DNA from: Promethearchaeota archaeon
GTDB lineage: Archaea > Asgardarchaeota > Lokiarchaeia > Sigyniarchaeales > SOKP01
Reading direction: 5' to 3'
Assembly (NCBI GenBank): GCA_048937405.1
Contig: JBHLNF010000001.1
Coordinates: 976,785 to 1,040,784 of the forward strand
Length of the DNA stretch: 64,000 bases
The stretch's first letter is position 1. Each line of letters begins with the position of its first letter. Position numbers and translations under genes: made by a program. This document shows, one piece after another, positions 1,171-22,876 of the stretch. Under the pieces are notes generated by a model, which saw nothing but the letters and a program-made list of their open reading frames with translations, had not been told where the DNA came from and ran no database searches.

Positions 1171-2325
1171 TTAATCAAATAATCCTGTTAATCCCCTCAT
1201 TCTTGCTTTAATTGCATTTTGTGGACATAATTCAGAACAACATAAACAAGAAATACATTTTTTTCTTAAAAACATAGGATAATTTCCATCTATAAATTTT
1301 ATTGCATTAGCTGGGCAAATATCAGCGCACTGACCGCATTTCACACATCTATTCTTTATTAAATTAGGTATTTTTTTAATTATTTTATATCCTATATGTC
1401 CCGTCATGAAACTAATAACACTTGTAAAGTTATTTCCAGGAACATTAAATTTAGGAGTTTGATTTTTTGCCTGTTCAAGAGACATTCCTAAAATTTCTAT
1501 TTCTTCTAAGTTTCCAACTCCCAATTTTCGTTCTATTGCATTTTTAACATGAGGTACGATTTTTGTTTTAACCTTACCAATTTCCAACGCTACAATATCT
1601 AAAGCTAACTCATCTGTTCCTGCAAGAAGTAAATCCCATTGTTTCATCGATCCTCCTCCTGGACCAAACCTCCCTTCCATTATGTTTTGTAAATCGTAAA
1701 TAATTAATCTATTTGGTTTGTTCTTTACAACCCATGAAAAATTATCCGCAAGAACTTCTCCAAATTGTTCAGCAGTTTTTCCTAATAAATGATATTGAGC
1801 TTTTAATCCTCCCTGTATAATTCCCCAATAATTTTTTATTGCTCCTGTCATTGTTGCCTCGATATGAGATTTTAAGCGTGGTAAGTTAATTAAAATATCA
1901 CATTCTTTAACTGCCTTTGCAACACGGATTTGTTTCAAACGTAAAGCACCCTCTATCTTTTCAATTAATGGTGTATCGCTTTCGAAATCTACAAATTTTA
2001 CGCCATACTTCTCACAAATTTCAAGTATTCCAACTTTTTCTGCTACATCAGAAGCGGACTTTCCCTGTTGTCCCGGAGAATCTCCCACAGAAACATTCTC
2101 TATAGAAACACCCTTCTCATTTAAATAAGTGATTACACCCTCTAGAAAACTTGGTTGTGTACATGCGTTTTTTTTTGCTGTAAGTAAATTTGGCTTAAGA
2201 AGTATTTTCTTTGAATTTGTAAAATCGAATAGCAAATTATCTTCTATTAATTTAATAGCTCCAATTACAGCTTCAGGAATTGACTCAAAATCTTTTACAT
2301 TTATTATACTTATTTTAGTGGACAT
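1171..2325 (-). CDS. DUF362 domain protein with C-terminal 2x[4Fe-4S] ferredoxin domain
   Basis: LLKPNL, CTQP, NLPRLKSH and TGAIKN motifs; two CxxCxxCxxxCP motifs. Confidence 0.9.
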   Translation of the reverse strand: MSTKISIINVKDFESIPEAVIGAIKLIEDNLLFDFTNSKKILLKPNLLTAKKNACTQPSFLEGVITYLNEKGVSIENVSVGDSPGQQGKSASDVAEKVGILEICEKYGVKFVDFESDTPLIEKIEGALRLKQIRVAKAVKECDILINLPRLKSHIEATMTGAIKNYWGIIQGGLKAQYHLLGKTAEQFGEVLADNFSWVVKNKPNRLIIYDLQNIMEGRFGPGGGSMKQWDLLLAGTDELALDIVALEIGKVKTKIVPHVKNAIERKLGVGNLEEIEILGMSLEQAKNQTPKFNVPGNNFTSVISFMTGHIGYKIIKKIPNLIKNRCVKCGQCADICPANAIKFIDGNYPMFLRKKCISCLCCSELCPQNAIKARMRGLTGLFD

Positions 2326-17952: not shown

Positions 17953-19620
17953 ATGAAGTTGATTAAAGGATTTCCAGCTGAACCAGAAGGAACATATAAC
18001 TATCAATTAAATGTTATTAACTTTATAAAACATGCGATGAGAAATTATGCAAGACAAGAAATAATTAGTAGAAAACATGATGGTACTCTTTTTAGGTATA
18101 CATATAAGGAGTCATATGAAAGAATGCAAAGATTAGCAAATGCATTAGAATCGATTGGAGTAAAAGTAGCTGATCGTGTTGGTGTTTTAGCATGGAATAC
18201 TCACCAGCATTATGAGATATATTATGGATTACCTGGAATTGGCGCTGTAATGGTTACTTTAAATTTACGTCTTGCTCCCCAAGATTTAGTGTATATAGTA
18301 AATCACTCCGGAACAAGTTATCTAATTGTCGATGAGGATTTAATTCAAATAGCTGAGAGCATAGCACCTTCATGTGACAATATAAAAGGCTATATTATTA
18401 TTACTGAGAAGAATATAAACGAAGTGGAAACAAATCTAAACCCTATTTATAGTTATGAAGATATTTTAAATAAAGCATCACCAGAATATGAATGGATAAA
18501 TCTTGATGAAAATTCCGCTTATGCTGCATGTTATACTACGGGTACCACTGGTAAACCAAAAGGTGTTTATTATTCACATCGAAATTTGTACTTACAAACG
18601 ATGATGTTTGCATCTTTTTTTTCATTTACTGTAAATGATGTTGTTTTGCAGTTAGTACCAATGTTCCATGTTTTGGGGTGGTCAATGCCACACTCTGCTA
18701 CTTATGTTGGGGCTAAAATAATTTTCTCTGGAAAGTGGAATTTGAATGATGTTGAGGAACTTACAAAAATTATGGTTCAAGAAAATGTTTCTCTTACTGG
18801 GGCTGTTCCAGCAGTTTTCATGACAATGCTAGAATTTATTAAAAAAATGAAAGAAAAGCCAGATTTTACTGGAGCTCGTTTTATCTGTGGTGGTTCTGAA
18901 CCTCCAATTACTTTAATGCGTGGCTTTTGGGATGAAACTGGAGGAGAAATAATTCATTCTTACGGTTCTACGGAAGCTATGTCAAATACTACCCAAAACT
19001 CATTTAAACCATGGCTTAAAGAAGATCTTACAGAAGAAGAACTATGGGAACTAAAGAAAAAACAAGGTATAATCGTCTCTGGAATTGATGTTAAAATTGT
19101 TGATGAGAATGGTAATGAACTCCCTCATGATGGAAAAACTTCAGGAGAAGTTCTTTTCCGTGGACCTTGGATTACTAGAAGCTATTATAATGCACCACAT
19201 ACAATTAATAGTTTTACTGAAGAAGGATTTTATAGAAGTGGTGATGCTGGCTGTCTTGACTCAGAAGGATATCTTAAGATTACTGATAGAATAAAGGATG
19301 TAATTAAAAGTGGTGGAGAATGGATTAGCTCAATTGATATGGAAAACTCACTAGTATCACATCCGGGAGTATTAGAAGCAGCCGTTATAGGTATTCCTCA
19401 TCCAAAATGGGATGAAAGACCTTTAGCTTTAGTGGTTTTACGAGATGGATTTCAATCCATAAATAAAGAGGAAATTCATGGTTATCTTGCCAAAACCTTT
19501 GCTAAGTGGCAATTGCCCGAAGAAATTTTATTTGTGGAGGCAATCCCCAGAACTAGCGTAGGGAAACTTGATAAAAAACTAATGCGAATTAAATATCAAG
19601 ACTTATATACAAAAAGTTAA
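17953..19620 (+). CDS. medium/long-chain fatty acid--CoA ligase (AlkK-like)
   Basis: YTTGTTGKPKG, YGSTE, SGD, DRIKDVIKSGGEWISS and GKLDK motifs. Confidence 0.95.
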   Translation: MKLIKGFPAEPEGTYNYQLNVINFIKHAMRNYARQEIISRKHDGTLFRYTYKESYERMQRLANALESIGVKVADRVGVLAWNTHQHYEIYYGLPGIGAVMVTLNLRLAPQDLVYIVNHSGTSYLIVDEDLIQIAESIAPSCDNIKGYIIITEKNINEVETNLNPIYSYEDILNKASPEYEWINLDENSAYAACYTTGTTGKPKGVYYSHRNLYLQTMMFASFFSFTVNDVVLQLVPMFHVLGWSMPHSATYVGAKIIFSGKWNLNDVEELTKIMVQENVSLTGAVPAVFMTMLEFIKKMKEKPDFTGARFICGGSEPPITLMRGFWDETGGEIIHSYGSTEAMSNTTQNSFKPWLKEDLTEEELWELKKKQGIIVSGIDVKIVDENGNELPHDGKTSGEVLFRGPWITRSYYNAPHTINSFTEEGFYRSGDAGCLDSEGYLKITDRIKDVIKSGGEWISSIDMENSLVSHPGVLEAAVIGIPHPKWDERPLALVVLRDGFQSINKEEIHGYLAKTFAKWQLPEEILFVEAIPRTSVGKLDKKLMRIKYQDLYTKS

Positions 19621-19681
19621 GAATATAAATTTAAACTCTATTTTGTTCAAATAAGCAATACTTTTCTATTAAATTAGAGTT

Positions 19682-19927
19682 CTATCTTCTTCCCCGAATT
19701 TTACGAGCTTCTCGTTCTACTTCGCGTAGAATTACGATGTCATCCATCCGAATTGGACCTTTCACATTACGAGTGAGAATTCGATTTTTATCTGGACCTT
19801 CAAGAATACGAACTTTAATTTGAGTAATTTCCCCCGTGAGACCAGTACGTCCAATTACTTGAATTACTTGAGCTGGAATAGATTGATCTTGAACTGTAAC
19901 ACCTTTTGATTTGTCTAATTTTACCAA
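19682..19927 (-). CDS. rps28e: 30S ribosomal protein S28e (eS28)
   Basis: IGRTG.TGE.TQ...RNVKGP...LRE.EREAR; GGTGA 6 nt before TTG. Confidence 0.97.
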
Positions 19928-19945
19928 ATATCATCACCAAAACAA

Positions 19946-20317
19946 TTATTTTTTTATCTCTTCAATTTTTTTAACAACATCATTTAATGCGTTTTCATTT
20001 CCAGAGCCGACATTTTCAATAGCAATTGCACTTGAAGATACATTGATTCTAATCACATTTCCAAGTTCTTTTTTAGTTGATAAATAACCATAGGGAATTC
20101 CTTTCTCTTCACAGAGAAGTGGAATGTGAAATAAAATTTCTGGAGGAGTTACATCTTCAGCCATAACAACCAATTTTGCTTGAACTCTTTCAATAGATTT
20201 AGTTACTTCATTCATACCTTTTCTAATTTTTGAATCTCTTGTTTCTGCTATTGTTGTTAAAGTATTCTTGAGCTGATTTTTTAACTTTTCAGGTATTTTA
20301 AATTTAACATATGAAAT
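19946..20317 (-). CDS. rpl7ae: ribosomal protein L7Ae / k-turn binding protein (123 aa from probable ATT start)
   Basis: frame continues upstream of ATG 20215 through (M)SYVKFKIPE...KIRKGMNEVTKSIER; AEDV.P.EI..H.P.LCEEK. Confidence 0.95.
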   Translation of the reverse strand: MSYVKFKIPEKLKNQLKNTLTTIAETRDSKIRKGMNEVTKSIERVQAKLVVMAEDVTPPEILFHIPLLCEEKGIPYGYLSTKKELGNVIRINVSSSAIAIENVGSGNENALNDVVKKIEEIKK

Positions 20318-20323
20318 CTTTAT

Positions 20324-20331
20324 TCATCTCC
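20324..20331 (-). promoter_or_regulatory. Shine-Dalgarno-like GGAGATGA of rpl7ae
   Basis: 7/8 match to GGAGGTGA, 6 nt upstream of in-frame ATT 20317; same spacing as rps28e. Confidence 0.65.
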
Positions 20332-20469
20332 TTCAAATATATTTAATTAAAGATATATTTTCATAAATCATCGATTTATTATAATGAAACTAATTGGGGA
20401 AATTAAATAAAATTTTTCATTTAGGTAAAAAACCTAAAAATTTTTTTAAAATGAATCGTTTGATAGTTT

Positions 20470-20701
20470 ATGATTATACCTATTCGCTGTTTTTCATGTG
20501 GTAAGCTCATAGCTCATGTCTATAAACCTTACCTTGAGATGATAGAAAAAGGAGAGCCTTCTGAAAAGGCTTTTAAAGAGTTAGGAATCGAGCGATTCTG
20601 TTGTAAACGCATGATCGTAAATTAGTAAGCATTTAAGCTTTCTAAGCGTATGTCATGTGGACCTAATAGATGAACTCCTTAAATTTCCGAGATTGCAATG
20701 A
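20470..20701 (+). CDS. rpo10: DNA-directed RNA polymerase subunit Rpo10 (N), split: exon 1 20470-20620, exon 2 20652-20701 (66 aa spliced)
   Basis: manual translation MIIPIRCFSCGKLIAHVYKPYLEMIEKGEPSEKAFKELGIERFCCKRMIV+SHVDLIDELLKFPRLQ; RCFxCG and CCxRM zinc ligands; missing from the ORF track. Confidence 0.95.
20621..20651 (+). other. putative 31-nt bulge-helix-bulge (tRNA-endonuclease-type) intron in rpo10 mRNA
   Basis: exon stem CGCAUGA/UCAUGUG, central helix UCGU/GCGU, 3-nt bulges AAA and AUG, intron hairpin UUAG-U-AAGC/GCUU-U-CUAA; canonical cuts restore the frame and SHVDLID. Confidence 0.85.
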
Positions 20702-20724
20702 ACATACACATCTAATAACAAAAT

Positions 20725-22010
20725 TTAAGAGAAATGATCTAAATATTTTCTTTTGAATTTTATAATCTTTCTATTAAAATTTAGATCCCAAATCTTATTT
20801 TCTACTCTCTTCCAATATGAATGTGGCAGTGTTTCAACACTAAATTCATCACATAATCTCTTAAAAAGATCAAAACTAACACCAAAAAACTCGGCTAATT
20901 TAGTTCTAGGTCCAAGATTAATCAACTCATCTATGATATCTTTTTTCCCTATTTTTTCACGAAGAACTTCATAAGTATATCTCCCTCCCTTCATTGGATA
21001 AAATACTCTTTTTCTTTCCATACTGAATTCAAATGATTCCATCATAAAGTTAAATAATATTGGACCGATTCTTAAATACCAATGGTCTTTTATATCACAG
21101 TTTTTTATCCAAACTTTTTCTCTCCCTGCAATTTTCTTATTTTTAACTTCATGTCTTAAATTAAATTCTTCCTTAATTTGCTCAAGAAATTGCTTATTTG
21201 AATTATGAATTATAGGCGCTCCTTCTTCACCATCCCCATCATAAAAGCCGAGTAATACTGACAAAGCCACTTTATACATTAAATTTCTAAAAAAGCCAAC
21301 TCTTAAACATTTTCCTTCTTTAAAATCTAAAAATCCCAATTTTATTAAATCCTTAATCATTGGAATACATCCAATTCTAATTCCATATCTTTCTGGATAT
21401 TCTCCTGATTTTTTTCTTATCCTCCTATCAATTTTATGTTCAATTTTATTTATAACATGTAATTCATTACGAAATCTCTCAATAACCTTGGAATCCCTCT
21501 TTTCTAAAAAAAGGCCAATATGTCCATCCTTAGAAATAAATCCATCAGCAAGTAACAATCCAAAATAATAACCTTTGTTTGTTGTATTAAGTAATTTAAA
21601 GTAATGTTTTTTTAAATTAGGATTATGAAGATGCCATTGCTGTTGTCGATACTCAAGGAGTTGATTTTTTTCAATATAATTATAAATTAATTCTTTACAT
21701 TTTTTAATATCTTTATTGCTCAACTTTTTTGATAAAGATTTGATAAAATCTATTAATTGCTCAACTTTTTTGATAAAGATTTGATAAAATCTATTAATTG
21801 ATCTTTTGAAAATTTAAAATAGGGATTATGCTTTGGACTATTTGAATTCTTTATCCTAAACCGAGTATCTCTTATATATCTAATATGCATACCCAAATAT
21901 TCAGAAAATTTGTCATATGAAAGTATTTTTCTATGTATTTTACTAGTTGATACTAATTCTGATATTTCTTTACGTAGATCTTCTATGAAATCTAATGTAG
22001 AATATTCCAT
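20725..22010 (-). pseudogene. two-motif LAGLIDADG homing-endonuclease-like gene (about 414 aa if intact), frameshifted by a 41-bp duplication
   Basis: YYFGLLLADG and VLLGFYDGDG motifs; ORFs 21753-22010 and 20725-21723 join at ...KKLSN/KDIKK once one repeat copy is removed. Confidence 0.8.
21715..21800. repeat. perfect 41-bp tandem duplication with ATTG microhomology
   Basis: ATTGCTCAACTTTTTTGATAAAGATTTGATAAAATCTATTA at 21715 and 21756, followed by ATTG. Confidence 0.95.
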
Positions 22011-22265
22011 AATTGTCTATGAAAATTGAACTGATATAGGATTTTTAGTTAGAAAATTAGTTATTCCAATATTTATGATAAATGAGAGTGATTGATTATT
22101 AATTTCATCTCTAAAGTGAGACAAAGAATCTTAGATATAATATAGATTTAAAATAGGTTTGAAAAATTAGATAAAAATTCTATAGATTTATTCGATGAAT
22201 TACTTAAATTTCCTCGATTACAATAATATAATTATTTATAAATTAATAGAAGTAATAAGCAAGAG

Positions 22266-22448
22266 TTATTGTTTCCCGTAATGGGCAGTCCATCTCGTTT
22301 TTCTTGCTTTTTTATTATAATCTAACATTGATTTACGGCATTTGTTAGTACAAAAGTTCAAGACTGTACCATCTCTCTTTACAAACATGAGACCTCGGCC
22401 TATAGGAATATCATAACCACAAAAACTACATTTTTTTACCTTTACCAT
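22266..22448 (-). CDS. rpl24e: 50S ribosomal protein L24e (eL24)
   Basis: CSFCG..I..GRG.MFVKRDG.V..FC..KC...RWT. Confidence 0.97.
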   Translation of the reverse strand: MVKVKKCSFCGYDIPIGRGLMFVKRDGTVLNFCTNKCRKSMLDYNKKARKTRWTAHYGKQ

Positions 22449-22477
22449 TAGTAACACATATAAAAATTGTTTAAACT

Positions 22478-22876
22478 CTATTCCTTCTTAAATATTTCAG
22501 CTTCTCCGTATTTTACAACTTTTAAGTTTATTAAAGTCATATCATGAGTAATTTCGTTTCCTCGAACGGTTTTTCTCCTTTTCTGTCCTTTTCTCTGAGG
22601 TTTATATCCACTACTTCTTTTTGAGACTAGTATTTTCTTTTTGACTGGTCCATGAACGCTCTTTCTCATTGGAAAACCACTAGAATCACTTCCACCCATG
22701 ATTTGAAATTCATAATTTGCGAATCCTATCAGACCTCCCTTTATAATATCTCCAATTTTCATTCCTTCAAATCGAAATTTCTTCTCATCAATCTCAATAA
22801 GTTTGGATAATCCTTTTCCAGGACCCTCTTTTCCACCACTAATATTTAGTTTGTATACTATTTTTTCTGAGGACAC
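22478..22876 (-). CDS. rps6e: 30S ribosomal protein S6e (eS6)
   Basis: I.GGSDSSGFPMR and G...RKTVRGN motifs. Confidence 0.96.
   Translation of the reverse strand: MSSEKIVYKLNISGGKEGPGKGLSKLIEIDEKKFRFEGMKIGDIIKGGLIGFANYEFQIMGGSDSSGFPMRKSVHGPVKKKILVSKRSSGYKPQRKGQKRRKTVRGNEITHDMTLINLKVVKYGEAEIFKKE

What the first reader, a model, noticed from the sequence alone, without database searches (positions are those of the whole stretch)
20470..20701. Bulge-helix-bulge intron inside the RNA polymerase subunit gene rpo10 of an Asgard archaeon
Seen: rpo10 reads ...ERFCCKRMIV and then hits AAT TAG, while the conserved C-terminus (S)HVDLIDELL resumes 31 nt later in another frame. The junctions fold as a 7-bp exon stem (20608-14 CGCAUGA / 20653-59 UCAUGUG), a 4-position central helix (UCGU 20615-18 / GCGU 20646-49; three pairs plus one U-U mismatch), two 3-nt bulges on opposite strands (AAA 20619-21, AUG 20650-52) and an intron hairpin (UUAG-U-AAGC / AUUUAA loop / GCUU-U-CUAA). 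Cutting after the second base of each bulge gives GTA A|GT CAT = V-S-H, the family consensus; the neighbouring registers give VCH or VNH. Established: BHB motifs are cut by archaeal EndA and joined by RtcB in tRNA and rRNA, and the classic mRNA example is crenarchaeal cbf5. Inference: a spliced mRNA intron in an essential RNAP core subunit, in the lineage closest to eukaryotes. It would tie RNAP assembly to tRNA-splicing capacity. I do not know of a description in rpo10 but cannot search.
Basis: partly seen in the sequence, partly recalled or inferred. Interest (0 to 1): 0.95.

Follow-up and report, generated by a model that had tools for sequence, protein, structure and literature searches.

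The report
Mobile tRNA-type intron splitting archaeal rpo10
The only gene for the small essential RNA polymerase subunit Rpo10 in this Loki-type Asgard archaeon is broken by a 31-base insert shaped like a tRNA intron, which must be cut out of the mRNA to make the protein; the insert arrived with a spare copy of the gene's tail, next to a homing-endonuclease gene, in about ten separate species of one genus.

Summary
rpo10 (window 20470-20701) stops after ...KRMIV, and its conserved tail resumes 31 nt later in another frame. The junctions fold as helix / 3-nt bulge / 4-position helix / 3-nt bulge / hairpin. Cutting after the second base of each bulge gives ...MIVSHVDLIDELLKFPRLQ*.

The same insert lies at the same site in 10 of 48 species of this genus, whose relatives' records are labelled Promethearchaeota. 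Five base pairs show compensatory changes. Exon 2 has 19 variable bases and no amino-acid change. Each genome has one rpo10. The genome encodes a two-subunit EndA and RtcB. No RNA data could be obtained, so splicing is inferred.

New here: the intron is not inherited vertically. On an RpoB tree every intron-bearing species has an intron-less sister (10 changes for 10 carriers). Compared with the sisters, the intron is the left end of an 86 to about 2,200 nt insertion that carries a replacement exon 2. In 7 of 10 species the resident tail survives downstream as a decaying orphan (here 22185-22226). In four species the insertion also holds a LAGLIDADG endonuclease gene, which is broken here. This resembles the fungal mitochondrial C-terminal replacement cassettes, with a mini-intron added at the junction.

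The scan had already noted this intron in other genomes.

The parts
20470..20620 (+). rpo10 (rpoN/Rpb10 homologue) exon 1: 50 codons plus the first base of codon 51. It holds all four zinc ligands (CxxC ... CC).
   Evidence: Translation. Pfam PF01194, 78 bits, positions 1-49/58. It is the only PF01194 match in the 4.47-Mb genome.
20621..20651 (+). 31-nt BHB-type (EndA-type) intron, phase 1, with the in-frame stop TAG at 20623-25.
   Evidence: It is exactly absent in 38 congeneric species and in all other Loki-type relatives examined. It is present in 10 species, with compensatory changes.
20608..20659 (+). Whole h-B-H-B-h' motif: exon stem 20608-14/20653-59; central helix 20615-18/20646-49; bulges 20619-21 and 20650-52; intron hairpin 20622-30/20637-45 with loop 20631-36.
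   Evidence: Sequence; pair counts; energies.
20652..20701 (+). rpo10 exon 2, the replacement tail carried by the inserted cassette: codons 51-66 (S)HVDLIDELLKFPRLQ plus the stop TGA.
   Evidence: The ten species show 19 variable nucleotides in exon 2. None changes HVDLIDELLKFPRLQ; only the junction codon 51, whose first base lies in exon 1, varies (Ser in nine species, Gly in G016). Exon 2 is more similar to other carriers' exon 2 (best match 82-98%) than to the sister species' tail (72-86%).
20725..21723 (-). C-terminal 332 codons of a double-motif LAGLIDADG-type endonuclease gene (motifs GLLLADG and GFYDGDGE), convergent with rpo10 and ending 23 nt after its stop.
   Evidence: Homologues are single ORFs of 409-488 aa next to rpo10 in G024, G052, G008 and L062. 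The G024 copy scores 24.3 bits on Pfam LAGLIDADG_3, cut-off 22.5. The predicted fold matches I-DmoI best. Pfam finds nothing for this window's own fragment.
21715..21800 (.). Perfect 41-nt tandem duplication (2.1 copies) that breaks the endonuclease reading frame into two ORFs.
   Evidence: Tandem Repeats Finder, 100% match, score 172. Homologues elsewhere are unbroken.
21753..22010 (-). 85-codon ORF corresponding to the N-terminal domain of the same endonuclease gene.
   Evidence: It aligns with the N-terminal part of the single-ORF homologues.
22185..22226 (+). Orphan rpo10 tail (DLFDELLKFPRLQ*): the displaced resident 3' end of the gene.
   Evidence: tblastn E = 4e-10. Homology with the intron-less sister G044 resumes here and runs on for 1,279 nt at 85%. 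Orphan tails occur in 7 of 10 carriers, but among the roughly 90 loci with a single intact gene only in L075.
20621..22176 (.). Approximate extent of the insertion relative to the intron-less sister species: a net 1,556 nt comprising intron, replacement exon 2, endonuclease gene and spacer.
   Evidence: blastn of this window against G044. Homology stops near rpo10 nt 144-151 and resumes at sister nt 169, which aligns with window position 22194. The ends are approximate to about 10 nt.

Best explanation
The 31 nt at 20621-20651 are an archaeal endonuclease-type (bulge-helix-bulge) intron in the rpo10 pre-mRNA.

How it most likely works. The transcript folds so that the last bases of exon 1 pair with the 3' end of the intron (central helix) and with the start of exon 2 (outer stem). 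This presents two 3-nt bulges, as a tRNA anticodon-arm intron does. The two-subunit splicing endonuclease EndA cuts after the second base of each bulge, and RtcB joins the exons. The result is a 66-codon mRNA for full-length Rpo10. Unspliced mRNA would give a 51-residue protein lacking the C-terminal helix.

How it got there. The intron did not arise in place. It is the left edge of a DNA cassette inserted at nucleotide 151/152 of an intact rpo10. The cassette carries its own copy of exon 2 and, in its long form, a LAGLIDADG endonuclease gene. The resident tail was pushed downstream and is decaying.

Shown: the anatomy, conservation and covariation; the insertion relative to sister species; the patchy distribution; the presence of the enzymes.
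Inferred: that splicing actually happens, and which enzymes carry it out.
For: (1) Geometry and register: a 3-4-3 BHB, and the canonical cut positions give V-S-H, which is the sequence of intron-less orthologues.

(2) Ten species carry the insert at the same site. Five of 20 pairs change on both sides. Of the pair cells, 89.5% are paired, against 32-51% with slid partners, and 0 of 500 shuffles reach the covariation score.

(3) In G016 the 5' bulge is AGA, so the junction codon becomes GGT (Gly). Intron-less relatives have Ser or Gly at this position.

(4) Exon 2 has 19 variable nucleotides and no amino-acid change across ten species, readable only in the spliced frame. The 30-nt variant in G047 is a multiple of three but still carries in-frame TAG TAA, so read-through cannot work.

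(5) There is one PF01194 match in this genome (100% complete by marker genes) and one in each of the other nine carriers.

(6) The genome has two EndA paralogues. One has the Tyr/His/Lys positions and the other lacks Tyr and His, which fits an alpha-beta enzyme. RtcB is also present.

(7) Context: ARAGORN recovers only 14 tRNA genes in this genome, 9 of them with introns. Asgard tRNA genes are reported to be heavily interrupted (PMC11291895; bioRxiv 10.64898/2026.10.13.758758). uppS in this genome carries a 30-nt insert with a TAG between DG and NRR.

(8) Insertion: each of eight carriers aligns with its intron-less sister at 74-95% identity over 0.5-1.5 kb. In six of them the alignment resumes inside the sister's tail (sister nt 158-169), after a net insert of 86-1,630 nt. 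In G001 and G059 it resumes just past the sister's stop codon, after about 1,560 and 2,200 nt.
Against: No spliced RNA, circular intron or peptide has been observed, and no sequencing run could be listed.

The central helix has a U-U at its outer position in 9 of 10 species. An alternative fold (U-G pair, 3-bp helix, bulge shifted by one) is the minimum-energy structure in three species and would give the wrong frame.

The BHB conformer lies 2-7 kcal/mol above the minimum-energy fold in all ten species.

All genomes are metagenome bins with 4-9% estimated contamination. The species tree rests on one gene (RpoB).
Confidence: 0.82

Rival explanations
1. Translational bypassing (ribosome hopping), as in phage T4 gene 60. 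The ribosome would take off at GUA (Val50), skip the hairpin and land on a matching GUA at the end of the insert.
For: In this window a GTA lies at 20648-50, a stop follows one codon after the take-off codon, and a hairpin lies in the gap.
Against: The landing GUA is missing in G016 (GCAUAAG) and G055 (GCAGAGG), yet the BHB pairing is kept there by compensatory changes. In this window a hop would give Cys rather than the family's Ser/Gly. Nothing in bypassing explains covariation between exon 1 and the 3' end of the insert.
Confidence: 0.03
2. The gene is effectively truncated. Cells would use a 51-residue Rpo10 holding all four zinc ligands, and exon 2 is merely a young relic of the inserted cassette.
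For: All zinc ligands are in exon 1. The nearby orphan tails also keep much of their coding sequence, which shows that short relics can look conserved for a while.
Against: Across ten diverged species exon 2 shows 19 variable bases and no amino-acid change, while the orphan tails show at least five replacements and have lost their first codons. The BHB pairing is maintained by compensatory changes, which a dead insert would not need. The C-terminal helix is invariant in more than 70 Loki-type orthologues.
Confidence: 0.05
3. The insert is removed from the RNA by some route other than EndA/RtcB, such as another endonuclease or ligase, or trans-acting factors encoded by the cassette.
For: Enzyme assignment rests only on the shape of the motif and the presence of the genes. 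The U-U in the central helix departs from the strict motif.
Against: The geometry is that of a canonical tRNA 37/38 intron, with 3-nt bulges four positions apart. The only register that restores the frame is the EndA register. Six of the ten carriers have lost the cassette's protein gene but keep the intron.
Confidence: 0.06
4. Assembly or binning artefact: the 31 nt or the patchy distribution comes from misassembly or from contigs placed in the wrong bin.
For: All the genomes are metagenome-assembled, with 4-9% estimated contamination.
Against: Ten independent assemblies from different studies carry homologous but non-identical inserts. For eight carriers the DNA flanking rpo10 on the same contig matches the sister species chosen from the RpoB tree at 74-95% identity over 0.5-1.5 kb, so the contigs belong where they were binned.
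Confidence: 0.01

Closest known systems
BHB intron in the cbf5 (pseudouridine synthase) pre-mRNA of Crenarchaeota (Watanabe 2002; Yoshinari 2006; Yokobori 2009, PMC2738675)
   Same: A short non-spliceosomal intron inside an archaeal protein-coding sequence, with BHB junctions, in organisms that have a hetero-oligomeric (alpha-beta) EndA. The gene is mis-called if the intron is ignored.
   Different: cbf5 is reported as one old gain in the ancestor of two orders, inherited vertically, with at least two losses (PMC2738675). The rpo10 intron is confined to 10 of 48 species of one genus and is scattered on the tree. It sits at the edge of an inserted cassette with a duplicated exon. Splicing of cbf5 was shown experimentally; here it is inferred.
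Canonical archaeal tRNA intron at position 37/38 (hBHBh' motif)
   Same: The layout is the same: an outer exon-exon stem (like the anticodon stem), a 4-position helix between the 5' exon and the 3' end of the intron, two 3-nt bulges, an intron hairpin, and cuts after the second bulge base.
   Different: The host is an mRNA. The outer stem is made of codons (Arg-Met-Ile pairing with His-Val). One position of the central helix is U-U.
Fungal mitochondrial mobile-ORF 'gene hybrids' with C-terminal duplication (Allomyces atp6; Glomus atp6, atp9, cox2, nad3; PMC3630166)
   Same: A foreign copy of the gene's 3' end, followed by a LAGLIDADG (or GIY-YIG) endonuclease ORF, is inserted into an intact gene. 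The native C-terminus stays downstream and matches the sister species. The two copies differ mostly at silent sites.
   Different: In fungi the foreign tail is fused in frame without an intron. Here a 31-nt BHB intron with stop codons separates exon 1 from the foreign tail. An intron-less version of the same arrangement does exist in one Loki-type genome (L075). The host is an archaeal chromosome rather than an organelle.
Collaborative or trans homing: an ORF-less intron mobilised by a neighbouring free-standing endonuclease (phage T4 mobE with the I-TevIII intron, PMC2790892; cyanophage S-PM2 psbA with F-CphI, PMC6083498)
   Same: An intron without its own endonuclease lies beside a free-standing endonuclease gene. 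The intron would interrupt the enzyme's likely target, and both could be co-converted into intron-less alleles.
   Different: Those are self-splicing group I introns in phages. Here the intron depends on host EndA. The nuclease's target is unknown, and the linkage is loose: 4 of 10 carriers have the gene inside the insertion, one has it upstream, and two intron-less genomes also have it beside rpo10.
Archaeal rRNA BHB introns encoding LAGLIDADG homing endonucleases (for example I-DmoI)
   Same: A BHB intron together with a LAGLIDADG enzyme in an archaeon. The predicted fold of the neighbouring protein matches I-DmoI best.
   Different: In rRNA introns the endonuclease gene lies inside the intron. 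Here it lies outside, beyond a duplicated exon, and on the opposite strand.

Membership tests
Archaeal BHB (EndA-type) intron | [quoted passage not shown] | tested here: met
   The bulges are 20619-21 and 20650-52, and four positions lie between them. Three are standard pairs and one is U-U (U-G in G055). The spacing is kept in all 10 species. This is a relaxed form of the motif, not the strict one.
Archaeal BHB (EndA-type) intron | Flanking helices h (exon-exon) and h' (within the intron) | tested here: met
   The 7-bp exon stem is 95.7% paired. The 9-position hairpin is 90% paired, and 4 of its pairs change on both sides.
Archaeal BHB (EndA-type) intron | Cutting after the second base of each bulge yields the functional product | tested here: met
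   Only this register restores ...MIV[S/G]HVDLIDELLKFPRLQ*, and it does so in all ten species. Shifting by one base gives Cys or Asn here.
Archaeal BHB (EndA-type) intron | Cognate splicing endonuclease and RtcB ligase are encoded | tested here: met
   Two PF01974/PF02778 proteins are encoded, one with the catalytic Tyr and His and one without. One PF01139 RtcB is also encoded.
Archaeal BHB (EndA-type) intron | Spliced RNA or a circular intron is observed, or cleavage is shown in vitro | not testable with these tools
   No sequencing run could be listed for this stretch.
RNA polymerase subunit N / Rpo10 / Rpb10 (PF01194) | Profile match with the zinc ligands CxxC...CC and the C-terminal helix | tested here: met
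   Exon 1 scores 78 bits over positions 1-49/58. The joined product is collinear with intron-less orthologues, which match positions 1-58. I did not score the joined sequence itself against the profile.
LAGLIDADG homing endonuclease (neighbouring gene) | Two LAGLIDADG motifs with the acidic residue, and the alpha-beta-beta-alpha-beta-beta-alpha fold | tested here: inconclusive
   The motifs GLLLADG and GFYDGDGE are invariant in 6 homologues. The G024 copy passes Pfam LAGLIDADG_3, 24.3 against a cut-off of 22.5. All top PDB matches are I-DmoI, but the model is mediocre (pLDDT 63; target-normalised TM 0.54-0.58; E = 8e-4). This window's copy gives no Pfam hit and is split by a 41-nt duplication.
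LAGLIDADG homing endonuclease (neighbouring gene) | Cleaves the intron-less allele at or near the insertion site | not testable with these tools
   This needs an enzyme assay. It is the untested step of the homing hypothesis.
Mobile-ORF cassette with C-terminal replacement (fungal mitochondrial type) | Foreign 3' end in use, with the native 3' end left downstream and matching the sister species | tested here: met
   Orphan tails occur in 7 of 10 carriers. In six of the eight carrier/sister pairs with downstream homology, the sister's functional tail aligns with the carrier's orphan and then continues into the flank. The tail in use resembles other carriers' tails more than the sister's.
Mobile-ORF cassette with C-terminal replacement (fungal mitochondrial type) | Foreign tail fused directly in frame to the host gene | tested here: not met
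   A 31-nt insert with stop codons separates them in all ten carriers. L075 has the fused, intron-less form.

The most novel reading that the evidence does not exclude
The mini-intron is the junction and immunity module of a homing cassette. In this reading the LAGLIDADG enzyme cuts intron-less rpo10 at codons 50-52. Repair then copies in [intron + replacement exon 2 + endonuclease gene]. The 31 nt split the recognition site on DNA, and host EndA/RtcB erase them from the mRNA. This would be the first described route by which endonuclease-type introns enter and spread among archaeal protein-coding genes, and it would operate in Asgard archaea. The endonuclease gene later decays: it is broken here, frameshifted in G001 and deleted in six species. 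The intron and a fading orphan tail remain.
Probability: 0.35. Interest if true: 0.9.

Novelty: new variant of a known kind. Interest (0 to 1): 0.78.

Why it matters
In the papers I could search, splicing of an endonuclease-type intron inside an archaeal coding sequence is documented for only one gene, cbf5, and no paper describes such an intron in rpo10 or in an Asgard protein gene. If this intron is spliced, three things follow.

1. An essential subunit of the transcription machinery in the closest prokaryotic relatives of eukaryotes depends on the tRNA-splicing enzymes.
2. Gene callers truncate or miss such genes.
3. This locus gives a rare view of how such an intron gets into a gene. Sister species with and without it can be compared base by base. 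They show an insertion with a duplicated exon and a homing-endonuclease gene, not a slow in-place origin.

That makes the long-standing question of how archaeal BHB introns move directly testable, with one nuclease assay and one splicing assay. The case does not bear on the origin of spliceosomal introns.

Tried and rejected
1. RNA evidence. The look-up of sequencing runs (kind rna) on window 19650-20760 listed no run, so none was listed and read laying could not be used.

2. Ab initio genome-wide search for other BHB introns that split coding sequences. A loose motif gave 168,786 hits, of which 1,580 restored a frame, against 1,511-1,611 for shifted decoy registers. A strict motif plus a codon-usage score gave 55 hits against 52-62 for decoys. 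The method does not discriminate, its thresholds even missed rpo10, and I draw nothing from it.

3. Sequence relatives of the intron in its own genome. blastn-short found only chance 14-15-mers, so the intron is not a repeated element.

4. Rfam on 19500-22600 gave no match at E <= 1. ARAGORN finds no tRNA in the window.

5. Pfam on this window's LAGLIDADG-like ORF gave no hit. A profile of the six homologues against PDB sequences gave no hit. Only the fold search and the G024 copy gave a family assignment.

6. Co-conversion of exon 1. I expected the carriers' exon 1 sequences to resemble each other. They do not: they average 80% identity, the same as to their sisters. Exon 1 is nevertheless much more diverged between some sisters (81-82%) than the downstream flank (94-95%). 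I cannot explain this.

7. A strict link between the intron and the endonuclease gene is rejected. G018, G016, G047, G055 and G059 have the intron without the gene nearby. G012 and L062 have the gene beside an intron-less rpo10.

8. The rpo10 gene tree of 201 nt is too short to be decisive. Eight of ten carrier alleles fall near each other and two fall elsewhere.
Full report
THE OBSERVATION

An ORF starting at 20470 encodes the first 50 residues of RNA polymerase subunit Rpo10, also called RpoN or Rpb10. It matches Pfam PF01194 at 78 bits over profile positions 1-49 of 58. It then runs into AAT TAG. The missing tail, (S)HVDLIDELLKFPRLQ*, lies 31 nt further on in another frame.

The junction region can be drawn in five parts:
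- an exon-exon stem of 7 pairs (20608-14 with 20653-59);
- a 3-nt bulge (20650-52);
- a 4-position helix (20615-18 with 20646-49), made of C-G, G-C and U-G plus one U-U;
- a second 3-nt bulge on the other strand (20619-21);
- an intron hairpin (20622-30 with 20637-45).

Removing 20621-20651, which means cutting after the second base of each bulge, gives GTA AGT CAT = Val-Ser-His. Shifting the register by one base gives Cys or Asn instead of Ser.

The ViennaRNA minimum-energy fold of the region is a neighbouring conformer (-18.4 kcal/mol, z = -3.6 against shuffles). The BHB conformer costs -15.0 kcal/mol. Energy alone therefore does not pick out the BHB.

IS IT REAL, AND IS IT MORE THAN CHANCE?

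The genome holding the window has 4.47 Mb in 29 contigs and is 100% complete by marker genes. It has a single PF01194 match, this one.

Among 54 species genomes of the same genus, 48 have an rpo10 match. In 38 of them the match is continuous (profile positions 1-58, protein ...MIV[S/G]HVDLIDELLKFPRLQ*). In 10 it stops at position 49 or 50: G000 (this genome), G001, G008, G016, G018, G024, G047, G052, G055 and G059. Each of these ten has only one match.

The ten carry an insert at exactly the same place. It is 31 nt in nine species and 30 nt in G047, where the loop is one base shorter. None of about 70 other rpo10 loci from other Loki-type families, and none from other archaea, is interrupted there. 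Record titles of the close relatives read Promethearchaeota or Promethearchaeia, the current names for the Loki branch of the Asgard archaea.

I aligned the ten junctions (A1) and counted pairs for the BHB structure.
- 89.5% of the cells form standard pairs, against 32-51% when the 3' partners are slid by 1-3 columns.
- 5 of the 20 pairs change on both sides. Examples are C-G to U-A in the central helix, and A-U to G-C, C-G to U-A and G-C to A-U in the hairpin.
- No shuffle out of 500 reaches the observed covariation score.
- The U-U position of the central helix stays U-U in nine species and is U-G in G055.

The coding evidence is equally clear. After in-silico splicing, all ten genes give a 66-residue protein. 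Across the ten species, exon 2 (50 nt) has 19 variable positions. All of them are silent: Leu TTA/CTA, Arg AGA/CGA, third codon positions, and the choice of stop codon. In G016 the 5' bulge is AGA rather than AAA, so the junction codon becomes GGT (Gly). Intron-less relatives have either Ser or Gly at this position. The 30-nt insert of G047 is a multiple of three but contains in-frame TAG TAA, so it too must be removed.

The machinery is encoded. There are two EndA paralogues, each with the N- and C-terminal endonuclease domains and 30% identical to each other. One has Tyr, His and Lys at the catalytic positions (GADYVVYK...EHSLF...SVRKK). The other has Phe and no His there. This is the pattern of a catalytic alpha plus structural beta enzyme. 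One RtcB ligase is also present. A recent preprint reports the same two-paralogue arrangement in 44 of 60 Asgard genomes (bioRxiv 10.64898/2026.10.13.758758). An earlier paper title links archaeal pre-mRNA splicing to hetero-oligomeric endonucleases (Yoshinari 2006, cited in PMC5829648).

No RNA evidence was obtainable, because no run could be listed.

WHAT ELSE IS THERE: THE INTRON IS THE EDGE OF AN INSERTION

Earlier notes of this scan pointed to a LAGLIDADG-like gene and a second copy of the rpo10 tail downstream. I tested both.

The orphan tail. Window 22185-22226 encodes DLFDELLKFPRLQ*, an orphan copy of the last 13 codons of rpo10, 1.5 kb downstream of the gene. Orphan tails also follow the intron-bearing gene in G016 (+105 nt), G024 (+156), G018 (+176), G047 (+190, starting exactly at VSH), G052 (+1653) and G008 (+1655). 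That is 7 of the 10 carriers. Among about 90 loci with a single intact gene, only one (L075) has a second tail.

Species tree. I built a codon tree of RpoB for 53 species of the genus and four outgroups. The ten carriers are scattered on it. Parsimony needs 10 changes for 10 carriers, which is what random labelling gives. Nine of the ten carriers sit in a 97-100% supported clade with an intron-less nearest relative. These are G016/G014, G055/G011, G059/G064, G000/G044, G008/G046, G018 and G024 with G067, G001 with G050/G051, and G047 with G005/G045/G066. The tenth, G052, joins its intron-less neighbours with only 69% support.

Sister comparisons. I aligned each carrier's locus with its sister's.
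- In eight of nine pairs, homology stops at about nucleotide 144-151 of rpo10. In six of these it resumes inside the sister's tail (sister nt 158-169); in G001 and G059 it resumes just beyond the sister's stop codon. It then runs on for 0.5-1.5 kb at 74-95% identity.
- The net extra DNA in the carrier is 86 nt (G016), 134 (G024), 154 (G018), 180 (G047), 1,556 (this genome), 1,560 (G001), 1,630 (G008) and about 2,200 (G059).
- The sister's working tail therefore corresponds to the carrier's orphan. The intron plus the tail now in use are inserted DNA.
- These flank matches also show that the contigs belong to the bins they were placed in.
- The tail in use resembles the tails of other carriers (best match 82-98%) more than the sister's tail (72-86%).
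- The orphans are decaying. They show Ile to Phe here, Asp to Asn in G047 and G008, Ile to Leu in G052, and loss of the first codons in six species. The tail in use shows no replacement.

The endonuclease gene. Between the gene and the orphan, this genome has two ORFs on the minus strand: 20725-21723 (332 codons) and 21753-22010 (85 codons). In G024, G052, G008 and L062 the homologues form one ORF of 409-488 codons with invariant GLLLADG and GFYDGDGE motifs. The G024 protein passes Pfam LAGLIDADG_3. A moderate AlphaFold model (pLDDT 63) finds the archaeal intron endonuclease I-DmoI as its best structural matches, followed by other LAGLIDADG enzymes. In this window the gene is split by a perfect 41-nt tandem duplication at 21715-21800. 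In G001 it appears frameshifted.

The gene lies inside the insertion in G000, G001, G052 and G008, and upstream of rpo10 in G024. No copy was found near rpo10 in G016, G018, G047, G055 and G059. It also lies beside an intron-less rpo10 in G012 and L062. The link between gene and intron is therefore loose. In G055 and G012 the rpo10 segment is inverted relative to the ribosomal-protein genes around it.

This architecture has a documented counterpart. It consists of a foreign 3' end in use, an endonuclease ORF, and the native 3' end left downstream and matching the sister species, with mostly silent differences between the two copies. In fungal mitochondria, mobile endonuclease ORFs insert a foreign C-terminus into atp6, atp9, cox2 or nad3 and leave the native one behind (Allomyces; Glomus; PMC3630166). 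There the foreign tail is fused in frame. Here a 31-nt BHB intron stands at the junction. One Loki-type genome, L075, has the fused, intron-less form at the same codon.

MECHANISM

Most likely (about 0.8), the pre-mRNA folds into the BHB, alpha-beta EndA cuts at 20620/21 and 20651/52, and RtcB joins the exons. The steps that are shown are the anatomy, the conservation, the enzyme genes and the insertion. Catalysis and its products are inferred.

Rivals:
- Ribosome hopping needs matching take-off and landing codons. These are absent in G016 and G055, and hopping would not explain the covariation.
- A truncated 51-residue protein does not explain the silent-only evolution of exon 2, or why the helices are maintained.
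- An artefact is excluded by ten assemblies and matching flanks.
- Another RNA-processing route cannot be excluded, but nothing calls for one.

How the cassette spreads is open. The patchy distribution, the insertion at one exact site, the duplicated exon and the decaying nuclease genes fit the invasion-decay cycle of homing elements. On that reading the mini-intron would split the nuclease's target, as in collaborative or trans homing (PMC2790892). I give this about 0.35, because the nuclease's target is unknown and its linkage to the intron is loose.

One fact remains unexplained. Exon 1 differs from the sister's by 18-19% in pairs whose downstream flank differs by only 5-6%, yet the carriers' exon 1 sequences are no closer to each other.

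COMPARISON WITH WHAT IS KNOWN, AND NOVELTY

The kind of thing, a BHB intron in an archaeal mRNA, is known from cbf5 in Crenarchaeota (PMC2738675). That intron is reported as one old gain with at least two losses.

Heavy intron loads in Asgard tRNA genes are published (PMC11291895; bioRxiv 10.64898/2026.10.13.758758). Consistent with this, ARAGORN recovers only 14 tRNA genes here. My searches found no paper on an rpo10 intron or on BHB introns in Asgard protein genes. The library lacks most subscription journals, so this is not proof of absence.

This scan had already noted the same intron in other genomes of the genus. It had also noted other rpoN introns at other positions and several other mRNA mini-introns in this genome. 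Of these I checked only uppS. It does have a 30-nt insert with a TAG between the DG and NRR of its catalytic motif.

I class the finding as a new variant of a known kind. What is new is the host gene, the lineage, and above all the context: a species-level presence/absence polymorphism created by an inserted exon-replacement cassette.

VERDICT

Interest is 0.78.

Noticed in passing
window 21715-21800: A perfect 41-nt tandem duplication (2.1 copies) splits the LAGLIDADG-type gene into an 85-codon ORF and a 332-codon ORF. Homologues in other species are unbroken. It looks like a very recent inactivation.
   Followed up: yes
L193 about 2150-2190, minus strand (own genome, contig C17 near 187,270): uppS, the only PF01255 match in the genome, reads ...LIIDG, then ACT TAG and 24 more bases, then NRRWAKK. 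This is a 30-nt insert with an in-frame stop inside the catalytic DGNRR motif, as an earlier scan note said. I did not fold it or compare it with relatives.
   Followed up: partly
own genome, whole: ARAGORN finds only 14 tRNA genes in a 4.47-Mb genome that is 100% complete by marker genes, and 9 of them have introns. Most tRNA genes are presumably too interrupted to be recognised.
   Followed up: no
L075 1648-2059: A Loki-type genome outside the carrier group has an uninterrupted rpo10 followed 358 nt later by an orphan tail (VSYADLIDDLLKFPRLQ*). The orphan starts at the same codon where the intron sits in the carriers. This is the exon-replacement arrangement without the intron.
   Followed up: partly
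L124 (G055) and L019/L129 (G012): rpo10, and in G012 the adjoining endonuclease gene as well, is inverted relative to the flanking ribosomal-protein genes (S6e-L24e upstream, L7Ae-S28e downstream). The segment between L7Ae and L24e is a rearrangement hot spot.
   Followed up: no
own genome C7:930160-930894, C10:41740-42572, C20:2884-3729, C25:148161-148847, C28:467922-468446: There are five more paralogues of the LAGLIDADG-like protein (28-33% identity) elsewhere in the genome. Whether they also sit beside interrupted genes or duplicated gene ends was not examined.
   Followed up: no
window 20608-20659 after removal of 20621-20651: In the spliced mRNA, and in some intron-less relatives such as G003, the exon halves can still pair as a 7-bp stem with a 7-nt loop. 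This is because the Met codon AUG and the His codon CAU are reverse complements. The shape resembles an anticodon arm and may make this a favourable landing site for a BHB intron.
   Followed up: no
own genome C18 near 6531, plus strand: The strict BHB scan flagged a 26-nt candidate with long open frames that score well for coding on both sides (66 and 83 codons). It is unverified, and the scan as a whole did not beat its decoys.
   Followed up: no
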